Assembly: GCA_964566535.1 (NCBI GenBank)
Contig: CAZMIO010000007.1
Location: forward strand, 1 to 56,808
From: an uncultured Methanosarcinales archaeon
Lineage (GTDB): Archaea; Nanobdellota; Nanobdellia; Woesearchaeales; CAZOXR01
Direction of reading: 5' to 3'
Length of the DNA: 56,808 nt
Positions 2,960 to 34,765 of this stretch are shown here, in pieces; position 1 is the stretch's first letter, and every line of letters begins with the position of its first letter. The translations under genes were made by a program, and so were the position numbers. Below the pieces are notes generated by a model. That model saw nothing but the letters and a program-made list of their open reading frames with translations. It made no database searches and was not told the origin of the DNA.

Positions 2960-3520
2960 TTAACCCAAAATGTTTTCGCAATCTTTTTTCATGAATTGAT
3001 TTGTAATTTTTGCGCATAGTGAAACATCTTCGCTATCAAGTGCTTGTTTCATGTTTGCGTTGTTATTGCAAACTTCGTTTTGTAATTCGTCTTTTATTGA
3101 AGCGCAACTGGATGTGTCTCCTGATTCGGCTGTTTTTGAAGAGAGAATAGTGTCACGACAGTTTGTTTTTAGTGCTTCGTTAGAAATTTGGTTGCAAAGG
3201 TTTTCATCGTTCTGTTTGTTAGCTTTTGCTAAGTGGACATTATCAATGCAAGATGATTTTGTTTCTTGGTCAGGGATTTTGTTGCAAGCTGATGTGCTTA
3301 AGCTAGATGCTGCGGTTTTTGATGTGATTGCGTTGATACAGTCATCTTTGATATCTTGTCTAGTGATTTGATTACAAGCAGATTCATCTGAGTTTCTTAA
3401 GGCTGCATCTAATATTGAGAAATCGGTATCGGGAGTTGTTGGTTCCTGCGGAGCTGCTGGTTCTTGCTTTGCACAACCAATTATTAAGAGTAATGTAACG
3501 ACTAAAATGTACTTTTTCAT
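2960..3520 (-). CDS. Lipoprotein-like secreted protein with five C-x11-C repeats
   Basis: SD GAGGTG before MKKYILVVTLLLIIGC (lipobox-like); ~29-aa repeats such as ACNQITRQDIKDDC and LCNQISNEALKTNC. Confidence 0.75.
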   Translation of the reverse strand: MKKYILVVTLLLIIGCAKQEPAAPQEPTTPDTDFSILDAALRNSDESACNQITRQDIKDDCINAITSKTAASSLSTSACNKIPDQETKSSCIDNVHLAKANKQNDENLCNQISNEALKTNCRDTILSSKTAESGDTSSCASIKDELQNEVCNNNANMKQALDSEDVSLCAKITNQFMKKDCENILG

Positions 3521-22271: not shown

Positions 22272-22279
22272 AGAAAAAA

Positions 22280-22353
22280 TGGGGTTACTGGAATTTGAAT
22301 CCAGGACACCTACGTCTTCAGCGTAGTGCTCTCCCAGGCTGAGCTATAACCCC
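22280..22353 (-). tRNA. tRNA-Phe(GAA)
   Basis: GGGGTTA/TAACCCC acceptor stem; anticodon arm CTACG-CTGAAGA-CGTAG; T arm CTGGA-TTCAAAT-TCCAG; no encoded CCA; TATA ~28 nt upstream. Confidence 0.96.
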
Positions 22354-22530
22354 ATCAAAGTATAAAAGAAATCAAATTTGTTTAAATAGGTTTTGGTTTG
22401 GGAAATGTTTGGTTATTAATATAAAAAATCATTAAAAAATAATCAATAATTAATAAAAGTTAATAAAAATAAATAAATAGTGGAAAGATATTAATACTAG
22501 ACATTCTAGAGATATAATTGGTGATGTGTA

Positions 22531-28575: not shown

Positions 28576-30060
28576 CTATTGGTTCTTAGGGATTACTATG
28601 GTAAATGTGGTTCCTTTCCCAACTTCAGAGGTTACTTTGATGTCTCCTTTGTGCAGCTTTACTATTTCGTAAGCTATTGTTAATCCTAGGCCAGTACCCC
28701 CTTCTTTTCTTGTCACATGGTGTTCTACCTGGTAGAATTTGTCAAATATCTTGTTTAATTGGTCTTTTGGTATGCCTGCTCCTGTGTCTGCAACCCCGAG
28801 TTCCCATGAATCGTTGATAGAGTTTATTGAGAATGTTATTTTTCCCCCTTTTTCTGTATATTTTATTGCATTTGATAAGAGGTTTATTAGAACTTGCTTG
28901 AACTTTTCAGAATCTACATTAACTTTTAGGTCTTTAGGTATTTCATTCTTTATTTTTATTCCTTTTTGGTCTGCTAATGGGATTGAGGAGTTATTGTTGC
29001 AGAAATCGTAGATATTGAATCTGCTTATGTTTAGTTTTATTTTTTTATCTTCTAATTTTGAAAGATCTAGGATGTCATTGATAAGGTAGGATAGCCTTTT
29101 TGTTTCTCCTTTTATTATGCCGAGTGATTCTTTTTGTTTCTGATTTACTTTTCCTAGTTTATCGTCTTTTAATAGGGAACTGTAAAGGTTTATTGAAGTT
29201 AGAGGTGTTCTTAGTTCATGGGATATTGTGGATACGAATTTATCCTTCATCATACTTAGTTCTTTTTCTTGTTTGTACTTTTGTTCTGAGATTTTTAGTT
29301 TCTTTCTTAGGAATGCTTTGTCTACAAGTTTTAAGTAAATGACTCTAGTGAGCATTAGGACTGCTAAGAGTGGGAATGGATGTTCTGCAACAAATAATTT
29401 AATGTTATTTCCGTTGTAGAAGAGGATGTTGATTAATCTTAAAAATGGTGTTGTAAAGTAAAATATGAAAGCTAAGATTAATGAATATCTATAACGATAT
29501 TTTACTTCAGTGTTTGTTGATAAAGTATTTATTGCGTAAAGGAGCAGAAGTATTTTGATAAATGTGAATAGGAGTCCGGAGATTGAATTTGTTATTATTG
29601 CATTGTTGTTTAGGAAGATGAGTACTTCTGCGATTAAAAATATTTGAAACAGGAAGTAGAGGATTAATGAAGGAGTTATTTGGAAGATAATCTGTTTCTT
29701 TATTGAGATTCCTTTTTTGACTAGGATGGGGAATAGGAATGCATTTATCATAAGAACTAAGGCTACTATTTCAAGTACGTGGCCGATAATTGGGAAGTAA
29801 TATCTATATGTTGTTGGCCCAATTTCCCTGAATAAGACTCCGAACAAGATAACAAATTCGACAATTTTTCCAAATGATAATGCTATGAATGCTATGGTTA
29901 AGTATTTTAGATCTAGTCTTTGGTCTCTTGTGTATTCAGAGACAATCATATAAGTTATTAGTAGGAAAAGTATTAACTCAAAACCCGTCTTGATCAATTC
30001 TCCTTCGAATGTTCCTAAGATAAAGAAGATTCTCCTAATGTTATCAATATCAAGAATCAT
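28576..30060 (-). CDS. Membrane-bound sensor histidine kinase
   Basis: Multi-TM N-terminus; H box SHELRTPL; N box NLLSNAIKY; G boxes DTGAGI and GTGLGL. Confidence 0.95.
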   Translation of the reverse strand: MILDIDNIRRIFFILGTFEGELIKTGFELILFLLITYMIVSEYTRDQRLDLKYLTIAFIALSFGKIVEFVILFGVLFREIGPTTYRYYFPIIGHVLEIVALVLMINAFLFPILVKKGISIKKQIIFQITPSLILYFLFQIFLIAEVLIFLNNNAIITNSISGLLFTFIKILLLLYAINTLSTNTEVKYRYRYSLILAFIFYFTTPFLRLINILFYNGNNIKLFVAEHPFPLLAVLMLTRVIYLKLVDKAFLRKKLKISEQKYKQEKELSMMKDKFVSTISHELRTPLTSINLYSSLLKDDKLGKVNQKQKESLGIIKGETKRLSYLINDILDLSKLEDKKIKLNISRFNIYDFCNNNSSIPLADQKGIKIKNEIPKDLKVNVDSEKFKQVLINLLSNAIKYTEKGGKITFSINSINDSWELGVADTGAGIPKDQLNKIFDKFYQVEHHVTRKEGGTGLGLTIAYEIVKLHKGDIKVTSEVGKGTTFTIVIPKNQ

Positions 30061-30067
30061 CTTAGAA

Positions 30068-30433
30068 TTATTTATTTAGCACTTGATTGATAACATGAAG
30101 TAGTTCGTCTGCTTCAAACGGTTTCATTATATAATCGTCAGCGCCTAAGTCCATTCCATCTGATTCGTCTTTTTCTTGGTTCTTTGCAGTAACCATGACA
30201 ATCTTAGTATGTTTAATTTCTTCGTCACTTCTTATACTTTTGCATACTTCCATTCCGCCCATCTTTGGAAGCATTAGGTCTAATACTACTAGGTCTGGCT
30301 TTTTTTCTTTTACTGCTTGTAATCCTTCTTCTCCATCTTTGGCAATATGGACATTGAAGTTTGCTGATAGAATTAGCTCTTGCGCCCTTGCTATGTTTTC
30401 ATCATCCTCAACTATAACAACACTCTTTTTCAT
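30068..30433 (-). CDS. Single-domain response regulator (receiver only)
   Basis: VEDD, DLVVLDLMLP, VTA and ADDYIMKPF motifs. Confidence 0.95.
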   Translation of the reverse strand: MKKSVVIVEDDENIARAQELILSANFNVHIAKDGEEGLQAVKEKKPDLVVLDLMLPKMGGMEVCKSIRSDEEIKHTKIVMVTAKNQEKDESDGMDLGADDYIMKPFEADELLHVINQVLNK

Positions 30434-30535
30434 CTTAAAGCCTCCCTATCACCTCAATGAAGAAAAATAAATGGAGATACGTTTATAAAGTTTTTGATAA
30501 GTTTTTGTAGGACAACTATTTCTTTTCTTTCTGAA

Positions 30536-30645
30536 CCAATCCTCCAGCCATCCCTGGCAGGAGACGGTTTTGTTTCACAAAACCTACTCGCCACCCCGGA
30601 TGGGGCATCCCCCGGCTCGTCTCCGCCATGGCTGGAGTCTCCTGG
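30536..30645 (-). ncRNA. Unassigned GC-rich structured RNA
   Basis: 63% GC over 30541-30640 in an AT-rich intergenic region; nested stems; TATA at 30666-30673. Strand inferred from G-U pairs and promoter spacing. Confidence 0.65.
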
Positions 30646-30695
30646 ACACTCATTATCCCAAAACCTTTATATACGGATTCTATTAACTTCTTGTT

Positions 30696-33215
30696 ATGGA
30701 ATTGCCTAAGAGATATGAAGCAAAGGATGCTGAGGGGAAATGGCAGAAGTTTTGGGAGAAGGAAGGAATCTATAAGTTTGATCCTGATTCTAAATCTGAG
30801 GTTTATTCTATAGATACTCCTCCGCCGACTGTTTCTGGAAAGATGCATATGGGGCATGCTTTTTCATATTCTCAGCAGGATTTTATCGCTAGATTTCAAA
30901 GGATGTTGGGAAAGAATGTTTTTTATCCGTTTGGAACGGATGATAATGGGCTGCCAACTGAGAGATTGATTGAGAAGACAAAGAAAGTTAAGGCATCTAA
31001 GATGGACAGGCAAGAGTTTGTTAAGCTTTGTTTAGATACTTTAGAGAATGAGTTGAGACCTAAATATATTGAAGATTGGAAACGGATTGGGATGAGTTGT
31101 GATTGGGATGTTTTTTACACAACAATCAATAAGCACTGTCAAAGAATTTCTCAGAGAAGTTTTATTGAGCTTTATGAGGCTGGGAGAATAGAGCACAAGA
31201 AATCACCTATTATGATCTGTCCTCAGTGCAGCACTGCAATTGCACAGGTTGAGATGAGGGATGAGGAGAAGAAGAGTTCTCTTAATTACATTAAGGCAAA
31301 GATGGATGATGGTGAATATATTATTTATGCTACTACAAGACCTGAACTAATCCCTGGTTGTGTGAGTGTTTCACTTAACAAAGATGGAATTTATGTTAGG
31401 GTTAAGAAAGGGAATGAGGTTTGGGTTATTAGCAAAGAGGCTTTTGAGAAGTTTCGTGATGAATGGGAGCTTACGCTTATTGATGAGGTAGAGGGTAATT
31501 TATTTGTTGGTAAGAAAGTTAAATTGCCAATAACTGGTGCTAAGATAACAGTACTTCATGATGAAGAGTCTAAGACAGAGTACGGTTCTGGAATAGTTTA
31601 TTGGTGTACTTATGGTGGTATGGAATGTATTGATTATCTTACTAGACATACAGATATTAAGCCGATACATATCATGGATATTTCTGGAAGATATAATGGA
31701 AAAGCTGGGAAGTATGAAGGAATGATGTCTCTTGAAGCTAGGAAAGCTATTTTAGAGGATTTGGAGAAAGATGGTTCTTTAGTATTTCAAGAGCACTTAA
31801 GTCACGCCGTTAATGTTCATGAAAGATGTGGAACTGATATTGAGTATGTTGCAACAAAGCAATGGTTTATCAAGTATTTAGATCTGAAGGAGCAGTTTTT
31901 GAAGAATGGTGCTGAATTGAATTGGTATCCTAAACATATGAAACACAGATATGATAATTGGGTTAAGGGGTTAAAATGGGATTGGTGTATATCTCGTCAG
32001 AGGTTTTTTGGAGTTCCGTTTCCAGTATGGTATTGTAAGGAATGTAAGGAAACTATAATTGCTAATGTTAATAAATTGCCAGTTGATCCTTTGAAGGATA
32101 AGCCCACTAGGAAATGTAAGTGTGGAAGTGATGAGTTTATTGGAGAGAAGGATATTTTGGATACGTGGGCGACTTCGTCGCTTACTCCACAGCTTGCTAC
32201 TGAGTTGTTTAAGGGCAAGAAGATTTATGATAAATTGTTTCCGATGTCGATTAGACCACAGGCGCATGATATTATTACTTTTTGGTTGTTTAATACATTG
32301 GTTAAGTCTCAGTTGCACTATGGAAAGAATCCATGGAAGGATGTGGTTATATCTGGGCATGCTCTTGACCCTCGTGGAAAGAAGATGAGTAAGAGTAAGG
32401 GGAATGTTGTTGAGCCTCAGTTAGTTTTAGAGAAGTATAGCTCTGATGCTCTGCGTTTTTGGGCAGCTGGCTCTAAGTTAGGGGACGACCTGCCTTACCA
32501 AGAGAAGGATTTGGTTACAGGGCAGAAGTTTATCACTAAATTGTGGAATGCTTCTAAGTTTACTTTTATGCATTTGGAGGATTATAAAGGTGGTAAGCCT
32601 AAGAAGCTAGAGGTTATTGATGAATGGATTCTGGTAAAGTTGAATGAGATTATTAAGAATTCTACTTTGTCTTTTGAGAAGTATGAATATTCCAGGACTA
32701 AATCAGATGTTGAGAATTTCTTTTGGCATACTTTTTGTGACAATTATTTAGAGATAGTTAAAGATAGGTTGTATAACCCTGATCAACGTGGTAAGAGTGA
32801 GCGGTTGAGTGCTCAGTATGGCCTTTACCATGGTTTGTTGGGAGTTTTGAAGTTGATGGCACCAATAATGCCGCACATAACTGAAGAATTGTATCATGCA
32901 TTCTTTAAGGTGAAGGAGAAAGCTAAGAGTATTCATATTTCTTCATGGCCTTCTGAGGTTGAAGTTGATAAGAAGGTTGAGAAAGTAGGTGATTTGGTTG
33001 TTTATGCTGTTTCCAAAGTAAGGCAAGCTAAGTCTGAGAATAATATGTCTTTGAAGAACCCGATTAAGGGGTTAATTGTTAAGGGGAAGATTTCGAAGAA
33101 AGAGTTTGAGTCTATTAAAGATGATTTAGTTGGTGCAACTAAAGCTGAGAGCGTTAGTTATGAGAAGTTAGCCGATGATTCTAAGATAAATGAAGAAGTC
33201 GTTGTTGAGCTTTAG
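30696..33215 (+). CDS. valS: Valine--tRNA ligase (archaeal type)
   Basis: DTPPPTVSGKMHMGH, DWCISRQR, DTWATS and KMSKS motifs. Confidence 0.97.
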   Translation: MELPKRYEAKDAEGKWQKFWEKEGIYKFDPDSKSEVYSIDTPPPTVSGKMHMGHAFSYSQQDFIARFQRMLGKNVFYPFGTDDNGLPTERLIEKTKKVKASKMDRQEFVKLCLDTLENELRPKYIEDWKRIGMSCDWDVFYTTINKHCQRISQRSFIELYEAGRIEHKKSPIMICPQCSTAIAQVEMRDEEKKSSLNYIKAKMDDGEYIIYATTRPELIPGCVSVSLNKDGIYVRVKKGNEVWVISKEAFEKFRDEWELTLIDEVEGNLFVGKKVKLPITGAKITVLHDEESKTEYGSGIVYWCTYGGMECIDYLTRHTDIKPIHIMDISGRYNGKAGKYEGMMSLEARKAILEDLEKDGSLVFQEHLSHAVNVHERCGTDIEYVATKQWFIKYLDLKEQFLKNGAELNWYPKHMKHRYDNWVKGLKWDWCISRQRFFGVPFPVWYCKECKETIIANVNKLPVDPLKDKPTRKCKCGSDEFIGEKDILDTWATSSLTPQLATELFKGKKIYDKLFPMSIRPQAHDIITFWLFNTLVKSQLHYGKNPWKDVVISGHALDPRGKKMSKSKGNVVEPQLVLEKYSSDALRFWAAGSKLGDDLPYQEKDLVTGQKFITKLWNASKFTFMHLEDYKGGKPKKLEVIDEWILVKLNEIIKNSTLSFEKYEYSRTKSDVENFFWHTFCDNYLEIVKDRLYNPDQRGKSERLSAQYGLYHGLLGVLKLMAPIMPHITEELYHAFFKVKEKAKSIHISSWPSEVEVDKKVEKVGDLVVYAVSKVRQAKSENNMSLKNPIKGLIVKGKISKKEFESIKDDLVGATKAESVSYEKLADDSKINEEVVVEL

Positions 33216-34634: not shown

Positions 34635-34690
34635 TTTAGTATGTTATTTCTATTATAGTTTAAAATAGTTTTTGTTTTTTAATAAGTAAG

Positions 34691-34765
34691 AGGGAGGATT
34701 GGGATTTGAACCCAAAAATAAACGCTCTGCAGGCGCTCCCCTTAACCAGATTTGGGCATCCTCCC
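34691..34765 (-). tRNA. tRNA-Cys(GCA)
   Basis: GGGAGGA/TCCTCCC acceptor stem, U73 discriminator, anticodon arm AGCGC-CTGCAGA-GCGTT, T arm TTGGG-TTCAAAT-CCCAA. Confidence 0.95.

What the first reader, a model, noticed from the sequence alone, without database searches (positions are those of the whole stretch)
30536..30673. Unassigned ~110-nt GC-rich structured RNA between the two-component operon and valS
Seen: 63% GC island. The minus-strand fold has outer stem CTCCAGCCAT/ATGGCTGGAG and second stem TGGCGGAGACG/CGTCTCCTGCCA, closing a junction with hairpins TGCCCC-ATCC-GGGGTG and GGTTTTG-TGAAA-CAAAACC. At the base, CCAG-GA-GA/GA-TTGG resembles a kink-turn with tandem G-A pairs. The valS TATA (TTTATATA, 30666-30673) reads TATATAAA on the minus strand at the right distance for a 5' end near 30643-30645. 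It lacks the hallmarks of tRNA, 5S rRNA, SRP domain IV, RNase P and common riboswitches. Inference: a novel archaeal ncRNA (possibly L7Ae-bound) or a cis-leader of the receiver/kinase operon.
Basis: partly seen in the sequence, partly recalled or inferred. Interest (0 to 1): 0.72.

Follow-up and report, generated by a model that had tools for sequence, protein, structure and literature searches.

The report
Orphan copy of structured archaeal repeat
The GC-rich element next to valS is one stray copy of a previously uncatalogued, three-armed folded repeat that litters the genomes of related Woesearchaeota-type archaea and rides on IS5-like jumping genes, so it is mobile-element baggage rather than a gene-specific regulatory RNA.

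Summary
Window 30536-30645 is a 62% GC island that folds better than all 200 shuffles.

It is not specific to this locus. A covariance model built from homologues hits 42 of 151 genomes of the same order, with up to at least 29 copies per genome. The window's own genome has one copy (30550-30634, minus strand, 85.5 bits). None of 57 valS loci in relatives carries it.

The fold is a three-way junction with strong covariation: 17 of 19 pairs change on both sides across 102 distinct sequences. G.U and G.A pairs fall almost entirely on the window's minus strand.

Its 21-nt loop (GGGGG-NNG-CCCC-NUNC-GGGG-U) shows three-way mirror covariation, which suggests a small triple helix.

The unit occurs in four settings:
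- alone;
- as head-to-head pairs;
- inside MITEs with 8-9 bp target duplications;
- once inside an IS5-like insertion sequence, just after the transposase gene.

The K-turn/L7Ae reading and the operon-leader reading are not supported. Whether RNA or single-stranded DNA is the folded form is unresolved, and no expression data were obtainable.

An earlier scan note (e1-906646) described the same kind of repeat on other DNA.

The parts
30536..30645 (-).
   Evidence: Sequence; GC island; fold z-scores
30550..30634 (-). Core unit matched end to end by covariance model R1. It is the only match in the window's own genome.
   Evidence: 85.5 bits, E 2.3e-18, model positions 1-88 of 88; BLASTN finds a single copy in the own genome
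30542..30551 (-). Outer helix, 3' strand in the folded sense. Pairs with 30628-30637.
   Evidence: 10 of 10 complementary. The same CCAGCCAU/AUGGCUGG helix occurs in copies from other genomes: L044, L055, L204, L206, L208, L209
30628..30637 (-). Outer helix, 5' strand in the folded sense
30555..30565 (-). Helix A, 3' strand (GUCUCCUGCCA in the folded sense; one bulged U). A 3-nt bulge at 30552-30554 separates it from the outer helix.
   Evidence: Helix A is 94.7% paired, with 7 of 9 pairs changing on both sides
30619..30628 (-). Helix A, 5' strand (UGGCGGAGAC in the folded sense)
30566..30584 (-). Helix C hairpin (GGUUUUG-UGAAA-CAAAACC)
   Evidence: Helix C is 90% paired, with 5 of 5 pairs changing on both sides. 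Across the family its loops are mostly C(GNA)G triloops.
30585..30587 (-). Three-way-junction linker GUA (plus strand TAC) between helices B and C
   Evidence: GUA, AUA or GCA in the homologues
30588..30592 (-). Helix B, 3' strand (GGCGA). Pairs with 30614-30618 (GAGCC) through three Watson-Crick pairs plus tandem G.A.
   Evidence: 5 of 5 pairs change on both sides. The two outer pairs are G.A/A.G in 42 of 101 sequences and Watson-Crick in the rest.
30614..30618 (-). Helix B, 5' strand (GAGCC)
30593..30613 (-). Conserved 21-nt loop module, GGGGG-AUG-CCCC-AUCC-GGGG-U in the folded sense. Proposed to be a 4-5 bp hairpin with the 5' G-run laid on it as a third strand.
   Evidence: The exact pattern occurs in 69 of 301 genomes of the order, with 0 hits for the reversed control. 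Mirror three-way covariation.
30666..30673 (+). TATA box of valS. It is context, not part of the element. 22 nt lie between it and the valS ATG, so valS looks leaderless.
30696..33215 (+). valS (valyl-tRNA synthetase), the neighbouring gene
   Evidence: Pfam tRNA-synt_1 5.4e-88 and Anticodon_1
30068..30433 (-). Response-regulator gene, the neighbour on the other side. The histidine kinase gene lies at 28576-30060.
   Evidence: Pfam Response_reg 1.9e-29; HisKA and HATPase_c. The gene has its own TATA-like TTTATAAA at 30484-30491 and an AGGGAGGC Shine-Dalgarno sequence at 30440-30447 (reading inferred).

Best explanation
The element is a single, orphan copy of a roughly 90-110-nt structured repeat unit that belongs to the mobile-DNA load of Woesearchaeota-type (DPANN) archaea.

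One strand, the window's minus strand, folds into a three-way junction. Helix A closes the unit. Helix C is a variable hairpin. Helix B is capped by an almost invariant 21-nt loop. In that loop a CCCC/GGGG mini-hairpin is probably covered by the 5' G-run as a third strand, giving a triplex-like cap.

In related genomes the unit is dispersed in tens of copies. It stands alone or in head-to-head pairs among housekeeping genes. It forms the interior of MITEs that carry terminal inverted repeats and 8-9 bp target-site duplications. In one case it lies inside an IS5-like insertion sequence, 67 nt after the transposase stop codon and 31 nt from the IS end.

I therefore read it as a cis-acting structural module of IS5-like elements and their non-autonomous derivatives. 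On this reading it is kept by selection on the element, not on the host.

The window's genome has no detectable IS4/IS5, IS6 or Y1 transposase, so this copy is most likely an immobile relic with no dedicated role at the valS/response-regulator locus.

Shown: family membership, fold, strand, dispersal, and association with MITEs and an IS. Inferred: the triplex, that the module serves transposition, and that the folded species is single-stranded DNA rather than RNA.
For: Dispersal:
- BLASTN with the element finds many partial copies in relatives.
- The loop pattern occurs in 69 of 301 genomes of the order and 60 of 216 genera, up to 49 copies per genome. The reversed control gives 0 hits.
- In a wider sample it occurs in 44 of 218 same-order genomes and 0 of 83 genomes from other orders of the class.
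- Model R1 hits 42 of 151 genomes, all full length.
- The own genome has one copy.

Structure:
- Hand alignment A3: 91.2% paired, 14 of 23 pairs with changes on both sides, 0 of 500 shuffles as good; slid controls give 40-49% paired.
- Model-fitted alignment A4, 102 distinct sequences: 89.9% paired, 17 of 19 pairs with changes on both sides.

Strand: G.U 15 against A.C 3, and G.A 28 against C.U 0.

Loop module, 92 loops:
- Level-2 pair U-A always comes with A in the 5' G-run (8 of 8). C-G comes with G in 83 of 84.
- Level-1 pair U-A comes with A in 5 of 6. G-C comes with U in 5 of 6.
- This is a mirror repeat, not the direct repeat that an alternative hairpin would need.
- The mirrored A...A change also occurs in two class-2 MITE copies.

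Mobile context:
- Of 23 G056 MITEs with both inverted repeats, 19 have 8-bp target duplications matching at 7 or 8 of 8 positions.
- 8-9 bp duplications occur in other genomes too.
- Circularly permuted units sit inside GGCTCTGTAGAAA inverted repeats.
- An autonomous 890-bp IS has those repeats, a 9-bp duplication and a 294-aa DDE_Tnp_1/IS5-like transposase.
- The IS in L191 has perfect 17-bp inverted repeats and a 316-aa IS5-like transposase. It carries a class-1 unit on the same strand just after the stop codon.
- PF01609 is present in 22 of 42 unit-positive and 36 of 109 unit-negative genomes, and in 11 of the 15 highest-copy genomes. These are hand counts.

Not locus-specific:
- 0 of 57 valS loci carry the unit.
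- Neighbours are diverse housekeeping genes.
- Across 28 loci the gene arrangement is tandem in 20 (11 sense, 9 antisense), divergent in 6 and convergent in 2.

DNA-like loops: helix C ends in C(GNA)G triloops in 34 of 101 cases, against 1 GNRA and 0 UNCG. From recall, d(GCGAAGC)-type mini-hairpins are exceptionally stable in DNA, whereas structured RNAs usually favour GNRA or UNCG loops.

The own genome has no PF01609, PF13610 or PF01797 match.
Against: - The window copy shows no recognisable terminal inverted repeat beyond its own outer helix and no target-site duplication (by eye).
- Stand-alone class-1 copies in G005, G076, G084, G096, G120 and G147 also show no duplication. How solo units spread is therefore not shown.
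- Only 1 of about 27 class-1 loci with long flanks lies inside an IS.
- The 890-bp IS of G029 itself lacks the module.
- The link with PF01609 is weak and confounded by relatedness and by overall mobile-element load. Four of the 15 highest-copy genomes lack PF01609.
- The loop is conserved across about 60 genera while the inverted repeats differ completely. That is the reverse of ordinary MITE families and could mean the unit has a function of its own, such as an RNA.
- The unit lies on the same strand as the transposase mRNA in L191. This is equally compatible with a role as an RNA 3'-end element.
- The triplex rests on covariation in a few sub-families: at least four variant types, but related sequences. 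There are exceptions: A with C-G in 4+1 cases, and U with C-G in 2.
- Counts include the unpublished genomes G132, G207 and G209.
Confidence: 0.6

Rival explanations
1. It is a gene for a small, stable non-coding RNA transcribed from the minus strand. It would belong to a mobile family of RNA genes whose product acts in trans, or acts on its own element in the way IS-encoded guide or regulatory RNAs do.
For: - Strong strand-asymmetric covariation with G.U pairs.
- The loop module is far more conserved than the element ends.
- In L191 the unit is on the transposase mRNA strand.
- In the window the valS TATA lies 20-22 nt from the first paired base of the minus-strand fold. That spacing would suit a divergent start near 30643.
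- Many copies end in a helix followed by U5-7 in the folded sense.
Against: - There is no conserved promoter at a fixed distance. Only about 5 of 22 class-1 copies have a TATA-like box 36-45 nt upstream of the anchor.
- In 11 of the 14 head-to-head pairs the two 5' ends overlap by 8-9 nt, which leaves no room for a promoter.
- Orientation towards neighbouring genes is random.
- MITEs carrying the unit sit beside TATA boxes in both polarities, 11 against 8.
- Loops are DNA-type triloops rather than GNRA or UNCG.
- Distribution is patchy: 109 of 151 genomes have no hit.
Confidence: 0.2
2. It is a host-serving extragenic repeat in the manner of bacterial REP/BIME elements. In this picture the folded DNA or RNA serves as a binding site for nucleoid or topology proteins, as a transcript-end stabiliser or bidirectional terminator, or as a sink for supercoils.
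For: - The unit is strictly intergenic and occurs even inside operons, for example between ATP synthase genes in L201.
- It forms inverted pairs like BIMEs.
- It keeps a conserved GUAG-like junction.
- Many copies are flanked by A-run...T-run, which would terminate archaeal transcription in both directions.
- The earlier scan note e1-906646 drew the same comparison.
Against: - The window copy lies between divergent gene starts and lacks the T-runs.
- Only 2 of 28 loci are between convergent genes.
- Y1/RAYT transposases are missing from 38 of 69 module-positive genomes and from 8 of the 15 highest-copy genomes. These are hand counts.
- The patchy presence across the order argues against a needed host function.
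Confidence: 0.1
3. It is a new class of self-cleaving ribozyme embedded in repeats. Hammerhead and twister motifs are likewise multi-copy and circularly permuted.
For: - The unit is a compact three-way junction with an invariant loop and conserved junction letters.
- Circular permutation occurs in L010, L012 and L037, where helix A is closed and helix C is open.
- The unit is multi-copy.
Against: - There is no similarity to any Rfam ribozyme even at E up to 10.
- The junction has only three unpaired letters.
- The conserved loop is explained by self-pairing or a triplex.
- Orientation is random and no promoter is conserved.
- No cleavage test was possible.
Confidence: 0.04
4. It is a cis-regulatory leader or upstream element of the response-regulator/kinase operon or of valS.
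For: The position lies between the two genes. The folded strand is the strand of the response-regulator operon, and this copy has no T-run after it.
Against: - 0 of 57 valS loci in relatives carry the unit.
- The unit sits next to unrelated genes elsewhere.
- The response-regulator gene has its own TATA-like box and Shine-Dalgarno sequence downstream of the element, and valS looks leaderless.
Confidence: 0.02

Closest known systems
Bacterial REP elements and BIME clusters, mobilised by RAYT (Y1 HUH) transposases. This comparison is recalled from the literature, not read here.
   Same: Both are short, GC-rich, imperfectly palindromic, strictly intergenic and high in copy number, and both are often arranged as inverted pairs. 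Both have a strand-specific fold with a conserved GUAG-type motif beside a hairpin. Neither shows target duplications for solo copies.
   Different: The unit is an 85-95-nt three-way junction with a 21-nt invariant loop, not a single 20-40-nt hairpin. There is no dependable co-occurrence with Y1 transposases. The host is archaeal. The unit is also carried inside DDE-type MITEs and an IS.
Prokaryotic MITEs derived from IS4/IS5-superfamily elements, such as Correia elements and the Sulfolobus SM MITEs (recalled). A survey reports a Woesearchaea genome among the archaea with the densest MITE load, 105 per Mb (PMC11602168; I read the passages found by a term search).
   Same: The class-2, class-3 and permuted forms have terminal inverted repeats, 8-9 bp target duplications, a size of 165-220 bp, no coding capacity and tens of copies. 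A matching autonomous IS5-like element exists.
   Different: The conserved part is the interior, meaning the fold and the loop module. The inverted repeats differ between families, which is the reverse of ordinary MITE families. The window-type solo unit has neither the IS repeats nor a duplication.
GC-rich small RNAs found as GC islands in AT-rich archaeal genomes, such as the Hgc RNAs, and the L7Ae-bound C/D and H/ACA sRNAs (recalled)
   Different: No Rfam match. No conserved K-turn, no C/D or ACA boxes, no conserved promoter, and it is multi-copy and patchy in distribution.
Intramolecular purine-motif triplexes (H-DNA type mirror repeats) and RNA triple-helix caps such as ENE elements (recalled)
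   Same: The two purine runs are mirror repeats flanking a pyrimidine run. The co-variation follows G.G-C, A.A-U and U.C-G, the triplet rules recalled for purine-motif triplexes.
   Different: It has only 4-5 levels. It sits in a hairpin loop with a 2-3-nt return linker. It is unproven biophysically. It is not a homopurine tract in duplex DNA.

Membership tests
Any Rfam 15 family | Covariance-model score at or above the family's gathering threshold | tested here: not met
   The window has only two tRNAs at gathering score. For 30400-30750 at E up to 10, the best hits are 13-17 bits against thresholds of 40-100. Sixteen related loci of the other classes give nothing at E up to 0.5 except a 21-bit snoRNA hit, which is noise.
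K-turn / L7Ae-binding RNA | A conserved three-nucleotide bulge followed by tandem sheared G.A pairs between a canonical and a non-canonical helix | tested here: not met
   The basal GA letters are not conserved in homologues. The tandem G.A pairs in helix B have no bulge and are Watson-Crick in 59 of 101 sequences. L7Ae binding itself is not testable here.
MITE (non-autonomous DDE transposon) | Terminal inverted repeats matching an autonomous IS | tested here: inconclusive
   Met for the permuted, class-2 and class-3 relatives: GGCTCTGTAGAAA and GTAAGTAAAAAGTC repeats, with an IS carrying the former. The window copy has only its own 10-bp outer helix.
MITE (non-autonomous DDE transposon) | Target-site duplication of fixed length | tested here: not met
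   No duplication is recognisable at the window copy or at solo class-1 copies. It is met in relatives of the other classes: 19 of 23 G056 elements, plus L012, L049, L050, L057, L100, L101, L103 and L154.
MITE (non-autonomous DDE transposon) | Multiple near-identical copies in one genome | tested here: not met
   The own genome has one copy. Relatives have up to at least 29 class-1 hits and 49 module hits.
REP/BIME | Co-occurrence with a RAYT (Y1_Tnp) gene | tested here: not met
   PF01797 is present in 31 of 69 module-positive and 72 of 232 module-negative genomes. It is missing from 8 of the 15 genomes with the most class-1 copies. These are hand counts.
REP/BIME | Intergenic, high copy number, inverted pairs | tested here: met
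   All copies examined are intergenic. Fourteen loci carry pairs in the minus-then-plus arrangement, 11 of them overlapping by 8-9 nt.
Structured RNA gene (generic) | Compensatory base changes that preserve helices | tested here: met
   17 of 19 pairs change on both sides, and 0 of 500 shuffles reach the observed values. The A4 alignment was fitted to the model, but the independent MAFFT alignment A3 gives 14 of 23.
Structured RNA gene (generic) | Own promoter/terminator and evidence of a transcript | tested here: inconclusive
   No promoter lies at a fixed distance. Whether the element is transcribed could not be tested with the runs available (see tried and rejected).

The most novel reading that the evidence does not exclude
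The unit defines a new class of archaeal mobile structured element. Its invariant 21-nt loop folds into a miniature intramolecular purine-motif triple helix (G.G-C, A.A-U, U.C-G) capping one arm of a three-way junction. This fold, as single-stranded DNA or as RNA, would be the cis signal that an IS5-like transposition system, or a still unknown enzyme, reads. Such a structure-specified mobile module has not been described for DDE transposons. In the boldest form it is a functional RNA, ribozyme-like or guide-like, that the elements carry.
Probability: 0.25. Interest if true: 0.85.

Novelty: new variant of a known kind. Interest (0 to 1): 0.62.

Why it matters
DPANN archaea have tiny genomes, yet some carry dozens of copies of this folded unit. 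A catalogued family, with a covariance model, would remove a recurring source of false 'novel ncRNA' calls in these genomes.

It would also give a marker for mobile-element traffic within Woesearchaeota.

The loop's mirror covariation is a rare sequence-only signature of a triple helix, and it can be tested directly with short oligonucleotides.

Two side observations point to structure- and promoter-directed transposition in archaea, which is barely explored. First, the unit sits next to the transposase gene of an IS5-like element. Second, related MITEs and an IS insert 6 bp upstream of TATA boxes.

Tried and rejected
1. Rfam at gathering score and at permissive thresholds found nothing.

2. 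tRNA or tmRNA: none at the site.

3. K-turn: rejected from the homologues.

4. IS6 parentage, suggested by the GGCTCTG... repeat ends (a recalled resemblance).
- PF13610 is present in 17 of 69 module-positive and 37 of 232 module-negative genomes. These are hand counts.
- None of 14 PF13610 loci carries the MITE repeats within 3 mismatches in a sensible arrangement.

5. ISL3 (PF01610) and IS66 (PF03050): 0 of 5 high-copy genomes each.

6. RAYT/Y1 link: weak.

7. Fixed polarity towards the TATA box. My interim idea was that unit-bearing MITEs always face the neighbouring TATA box the same way, so the unit would be transcribed divergently. It held for the first 8-9 G056 copies. It failed on the enlarged set: 11 on one side, 8 on the other, 4 with none. 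I withdrew it.

8. Expression.
- Of 24 runs offered, one RNA run held 11% of the sampled words.
- When laid, its single contig covers only 30107-30252 in the response-regulator gene.
- This says nothing either way about the element.
- The three DNA runs laid show the element region with no differences and no joint that skips it. No empty-site allele was seen.

9. Viral contigs.
- 101 exact loop-pattern hits in IMG/VR, about what chance gives by my rough estimate.
- Only two weak R1 hits (22.7 and 24.6 bits) appear in the 80 loci listed.

10. Target duplication and IS-type repeats around the window copy and around solo class-1 copies: not found.

11. Conserved-neighbour idea: rejected.

12. Alternative Watson-Crick hairpin between the 5' G-run and the C-run. 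It would explain the loop only if the two G-runs were direct repeats, and they are mirror repeats.
Full report
**What is at the site**

Window 30536-30645 is a GC island. GC is 0.62 in 30550-30649, against 0.31-0.38 in the flanks. It lies between a response-regulator/histidine-kinase operon on the minus strand (30433..28576) and valS on the plus strand (30696..33215).

Either strand folds better than all 200 dinucleotide shuffles: z -3.59 for the minus strand and -4.18 for the plus strand. Rfam finds only two tRNAs in the whole window. Nothing better than 17 bits appears around the element even at E up to 10.

**It is a member of a large dispersed family**

- The own genome (1.45 Mb, 37 contigs) holds a single copy.
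- BLASTN against 60 relatives found many partial copies of the central 40-50 nt, several per genome.
- The shared core is a 19-nt pattern, CCCCGNANGGGGCNNCCCC on the window's plus strand. It occurs in 69 of 301 sampled genomes of the same order, which is 60 of 216 genera.
- It reaches 49 copies in one genome. The reversed-pattern control gives no hit in any genome.
- In a phylum-level draw it was found in 44 of 218 genomes of the order and 0 of 83 genomes from other orders of the class.
- Relatives found through valS are named Candidatus Woesearchaeota, Nanoarchaeota or Nanoarchaeia MAGs. This fits the small genomes and the archaeal neighbour genes such as Cbf5, tRNA-splicing endonuclease and SRP54.
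I reached the same kind of element independently from this window.

**The fold**

I aligned 18 window-type ('class 1') copies in the window's minus-strand sense (A3) and wrote the structure by hand. It has a closing helix A, a 5-bp helix B capped by the conserved loop, a 3-nt linker (GUA, AUA or GCA), and a variable hairpin C.

| Measure | A3, 18 sequences | A4, 102 distinct sequences |
|---|---|---|
| Cells paired | 91.2% | 89.9% |
| Pairs changing on both sides | 14 of 23 | 17 of 19 |
| Shuffles reaching the observed values | 0 of 500 | 0 of 500 |
| Paired with the 3' partner slid | 40-49% | 25-58% |

- A covariance model built from A3, with the loop left unpaired (R1), matched 42 of 151 genomes of the order, always full length.
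G005, G029 and G120 reach that cap, and 12 other genomes have 10-26 hits.
- The window scores 85.5 bits at 30550-30634 on the minus strand.
- A4 is the model-fitted alignment of 114 matches. It leans towards the model's structure.

**Which strand folds**

In A3, G.U cells outnumber A.C cells 15 to 3. Purine-purine G.A/A.G cells number 28, against no C.U cells.

The tandem G.A pairs at the base of helix B are Watson-Crick in 59 of 101 sequences, and no bulge accompanies them. The 'GA' letters at the very base of the window copy are not conserved. Many copies instead read AAAAAUCCAGCC...GGCUGGAUUUUU. The K-turn/L7Ae suggestion is not supported.

**The loop module**

In the folded sense the loop reads G-GGGG-NN-G-CCCC-NUNC-GGGG-U. 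Variants outside the exact pattern show that CCCC pairs with the 3' GGGG: CUCC/GGAG, GCCC/GGGC, UCCC/GGGA, and UCCC/GGGG with a wobble.

The 5' G-run co-varies with that hairpin as a mirror image. In 92 loops:

| Level | Hairpin pair | 5' G-run base |
|---|---|---|
| Second | U-A | A in 8 of 8 |
| Second | C-G | G in 83 of 84 |
| First | U-A | A in 5 of 6 |
| First | G-C | U in 5 of 6 |
| First | C-G | G in 74 of 80 |

Two class-2 copies show the same mirrored A...A change, where the alternative A-U closing pair is not available.

An alternative hairpin would need the two G-runs to be direct repeats, and they are mirror repeats. Mirror purine repeats around a pyrimidine run, with G.G-C, A.A-U and U.C-G sets, are what I recall as the rules of purine-motif triple helices. 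I therefore propose a 4-5-level triplex-like cap.

This is an inference from related sequences, and there are a few exceptions. It needs biophysical testing.

**Contexts and mobility**

The same loop module sits in several architectures.

*(a) Solo class-1 units with their own outer helix*
- I found no target duplication for them.
- Their neighbours are ordinary housekeeping genes.
- Across 28 loci the arrangement is tandem in 20 (11 sense, 9 antisense), divergent in 6 and convergent in 2.

*(b) Head-to-head pairs*
- Fourteen loci carry them, 11 with the two 5' ends overlapping by 8-9 nt.

*(c) MITEs*
- In G056, roughly 174-nt elements have GTAAGTAAAAAGTC inverted repeats, with more than 100 repeat words in the genome.
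- Of 23 elements with both repeats, 19 have 8-bp target duplications matching at 7 or 8 of 8 positions.
- Elements with GGCTCTGTAGAAA repeats have 8-9-bp duplications in G127, G015, G029, G189 and others.
- L010, L012 and L037 hold a circularly permuted class-1 core. Helix A is closed by a hairpin and helix C is formed by the inner part of the inverted repeats.

*(d) Autonomous elements*
- G029 has an 890-bp IS with the GGCTCTGTAGAAA repeats and a 9-bp duplication.
- It encodes a 294-aa DDE_Tnp_1 protein (PF01609, 2.5e-9). Its NCBIfam IS5 score is 118 bits, below the 140-bit cut-off.
- That IS has no loop module.
- G084 has an IS of at least 1207 bp with perfect 17-bp inverted repeats and a 316-aa IS5-like DDE_Tnp_1 transposase.
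- The G084 IS does contain a class-1 unit. It is on the transposase strand, 67 nt after the stop codon and 31 nt from the IS end.

*Transposase co-occurrence (hand counts)*
- PF01609 is present in 22 of 42 unit-positive and 36 of 109 unit-negative genomes. It is present in 11 of the 15 highest-copy genomes.
- Y1 transposases are present in only 7 of those 15.
- IS6, ISL3 and IS66 links failed.
- These associations are weak and not independent of relatedness.

**What the window copy is not**

None of 57 valS loci from relatives has a class-1 unit. The only hit is a 22.8-bit partial loop match far upstream in one locus. The element is therefore not a conserved feature of valS or of the two-component operon.

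- valS appears leaderless, with its TATA at 30666-30673 and its ATG 22 nt later.
- The response-regulator gene has its own TATA-like box (30484-30491) and Shine-Dalgarno sequence downstream of the element (my reading).
- Only about 5 of 22 class-1 copies have a TATA-like box at a comparable distance, and the overlapping head-to-head pairs leave no room for one.

**RNA or DNA?**

For RNA:
- G.U pairs occur in the helices.
- The unit lies on the transposase mRNA strand in the G084 IS.
- Many copies have U-runs after the outer helix.

For single-stranded DNA:
- Orientation towards host genes is random.
- No promoter is conserved.
- Helix C is capped by C(GNA)G triloops in 34 of 101 cases (GAA in 22), against one GNRA and no UNCG tetraloop. 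I recall d(GCGAAGC) as an unusually stable DNA mini-hairpin.
- Purine-motif triplexes are best known for DNA.

I lean towards a folded DNA strand read during mobilisation, at roughly 60:40 against RNA, but this is open. No expression evidence could be obtained (see tried and rejected).

**Verdict**

The finding is real as an observation and interesting as a family. The window holds one orphan copy of a structured, mobile-element-associated repeat, not a dedicated RNA gene or leader.

The own genome has no PF01609, PF13610 or PF01797 match, so the copy is probably immobile.

The family is absent from Rfam. I found no description of it: two full-text searches gave only a survey noting that a Woesearchaea genome is among the most MITE-dense archaea (PMC11602168, passages read). 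Supplements of that survey, which I did not open, may list such elements as anonymous clusters.

Tallies include the unpublished genomes G132, G207 and G209. No statement depends on them alone.

Noticed in passing
L242 (G029:C19) 417-1306; G056 loci L065, L088, L091, L093-L096, L424-L437, L442; also L050, L101, L103, L104, L012: IS5-like elements and their MITEs insert 6 bp from a TATA-like box, with a purine-rich BRE-like spacer. Of 23 G056 MITEs, 19 have such a box 6 nt outward from exactly one copy of the 8-bp duplication (11 on one side, 8 on the other, 0 on both). The 890-bp IS shows the same layout: GTAAAAAAT duplication, then gaaatg, then TTTATAAA. In L017, L050, L064 and L065 a gene start lies 22-24 nt after that box. 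This suggests insertion directed at archaeal promoters.
   Followed up: partly
L065 (G056:C1), about 22 nt downstream of the TATA box that follows the MITE: The sequence after the TATA box reads like a 5S rRNA gene (GGACGGCCATAGTGG...), so one MITE sits directly upstream of a 5S rRNA promoter. I recognised it by eye and did not run it against Rfam.
   Followed up: no
L089, L090, L092, L097 (G056): Some G056 MITE copies carry an extra 50-nt insert (tcttgatgagcgtagctcattaag...ctttgctctccaag) right after GCATCTTCAAA, giving a 224-nt size class. Repeat spacing suggests further size classes of about 300 and 375 nt.
   Followed up: no
L214, L216, L218, L219, L221, L205, L210, L231, L201, L193, L059: In head-to-head pairs of class-1 units, the two 5' ends overlap by 8-9 nt, and the outer helix of one unit is antisense to helix A of the other. 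A third partial GGCGTGCG word follows the right-hand unit. This is an interleaved, BIME-like mosaic.
   Followed up: partly
window 22279-22354 (-) and 34690-34765 (-): tRNA-Phe (GAA) and tRNA-Cys (GCA) genes. They are the only Rfam or ARAGORN hits in the window.
   Followed up: no
window 30666-30696 and 30440-30491: valS looks leaderless, with its TATA 22 nt before the ATG. The divergent response-regulator gene has a TATA-like box about 50 nt upstream plus a Shine-Dalgarno-like AGGGAGGC. The two initiation modes sit side by side.
   Followed up: no
L201 (G111:C19) 1424-1587: A pair of class-1 units sits between the ATP synthase subunit D and A/B-type subunit genes, which places it inside what is normally an operon.
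   Followed up: no
L107 (G127:C106) 584-603 and 3257-3276: A 2.7-kb segment is bounded by GGTTCTGGTGC... inverted repeats (80% complementary) and contains a 394-aa DDE_Tnp_IS240 protein. It may be an IS6-like element and is unrelated to the MITE ends.
   Followed up: no
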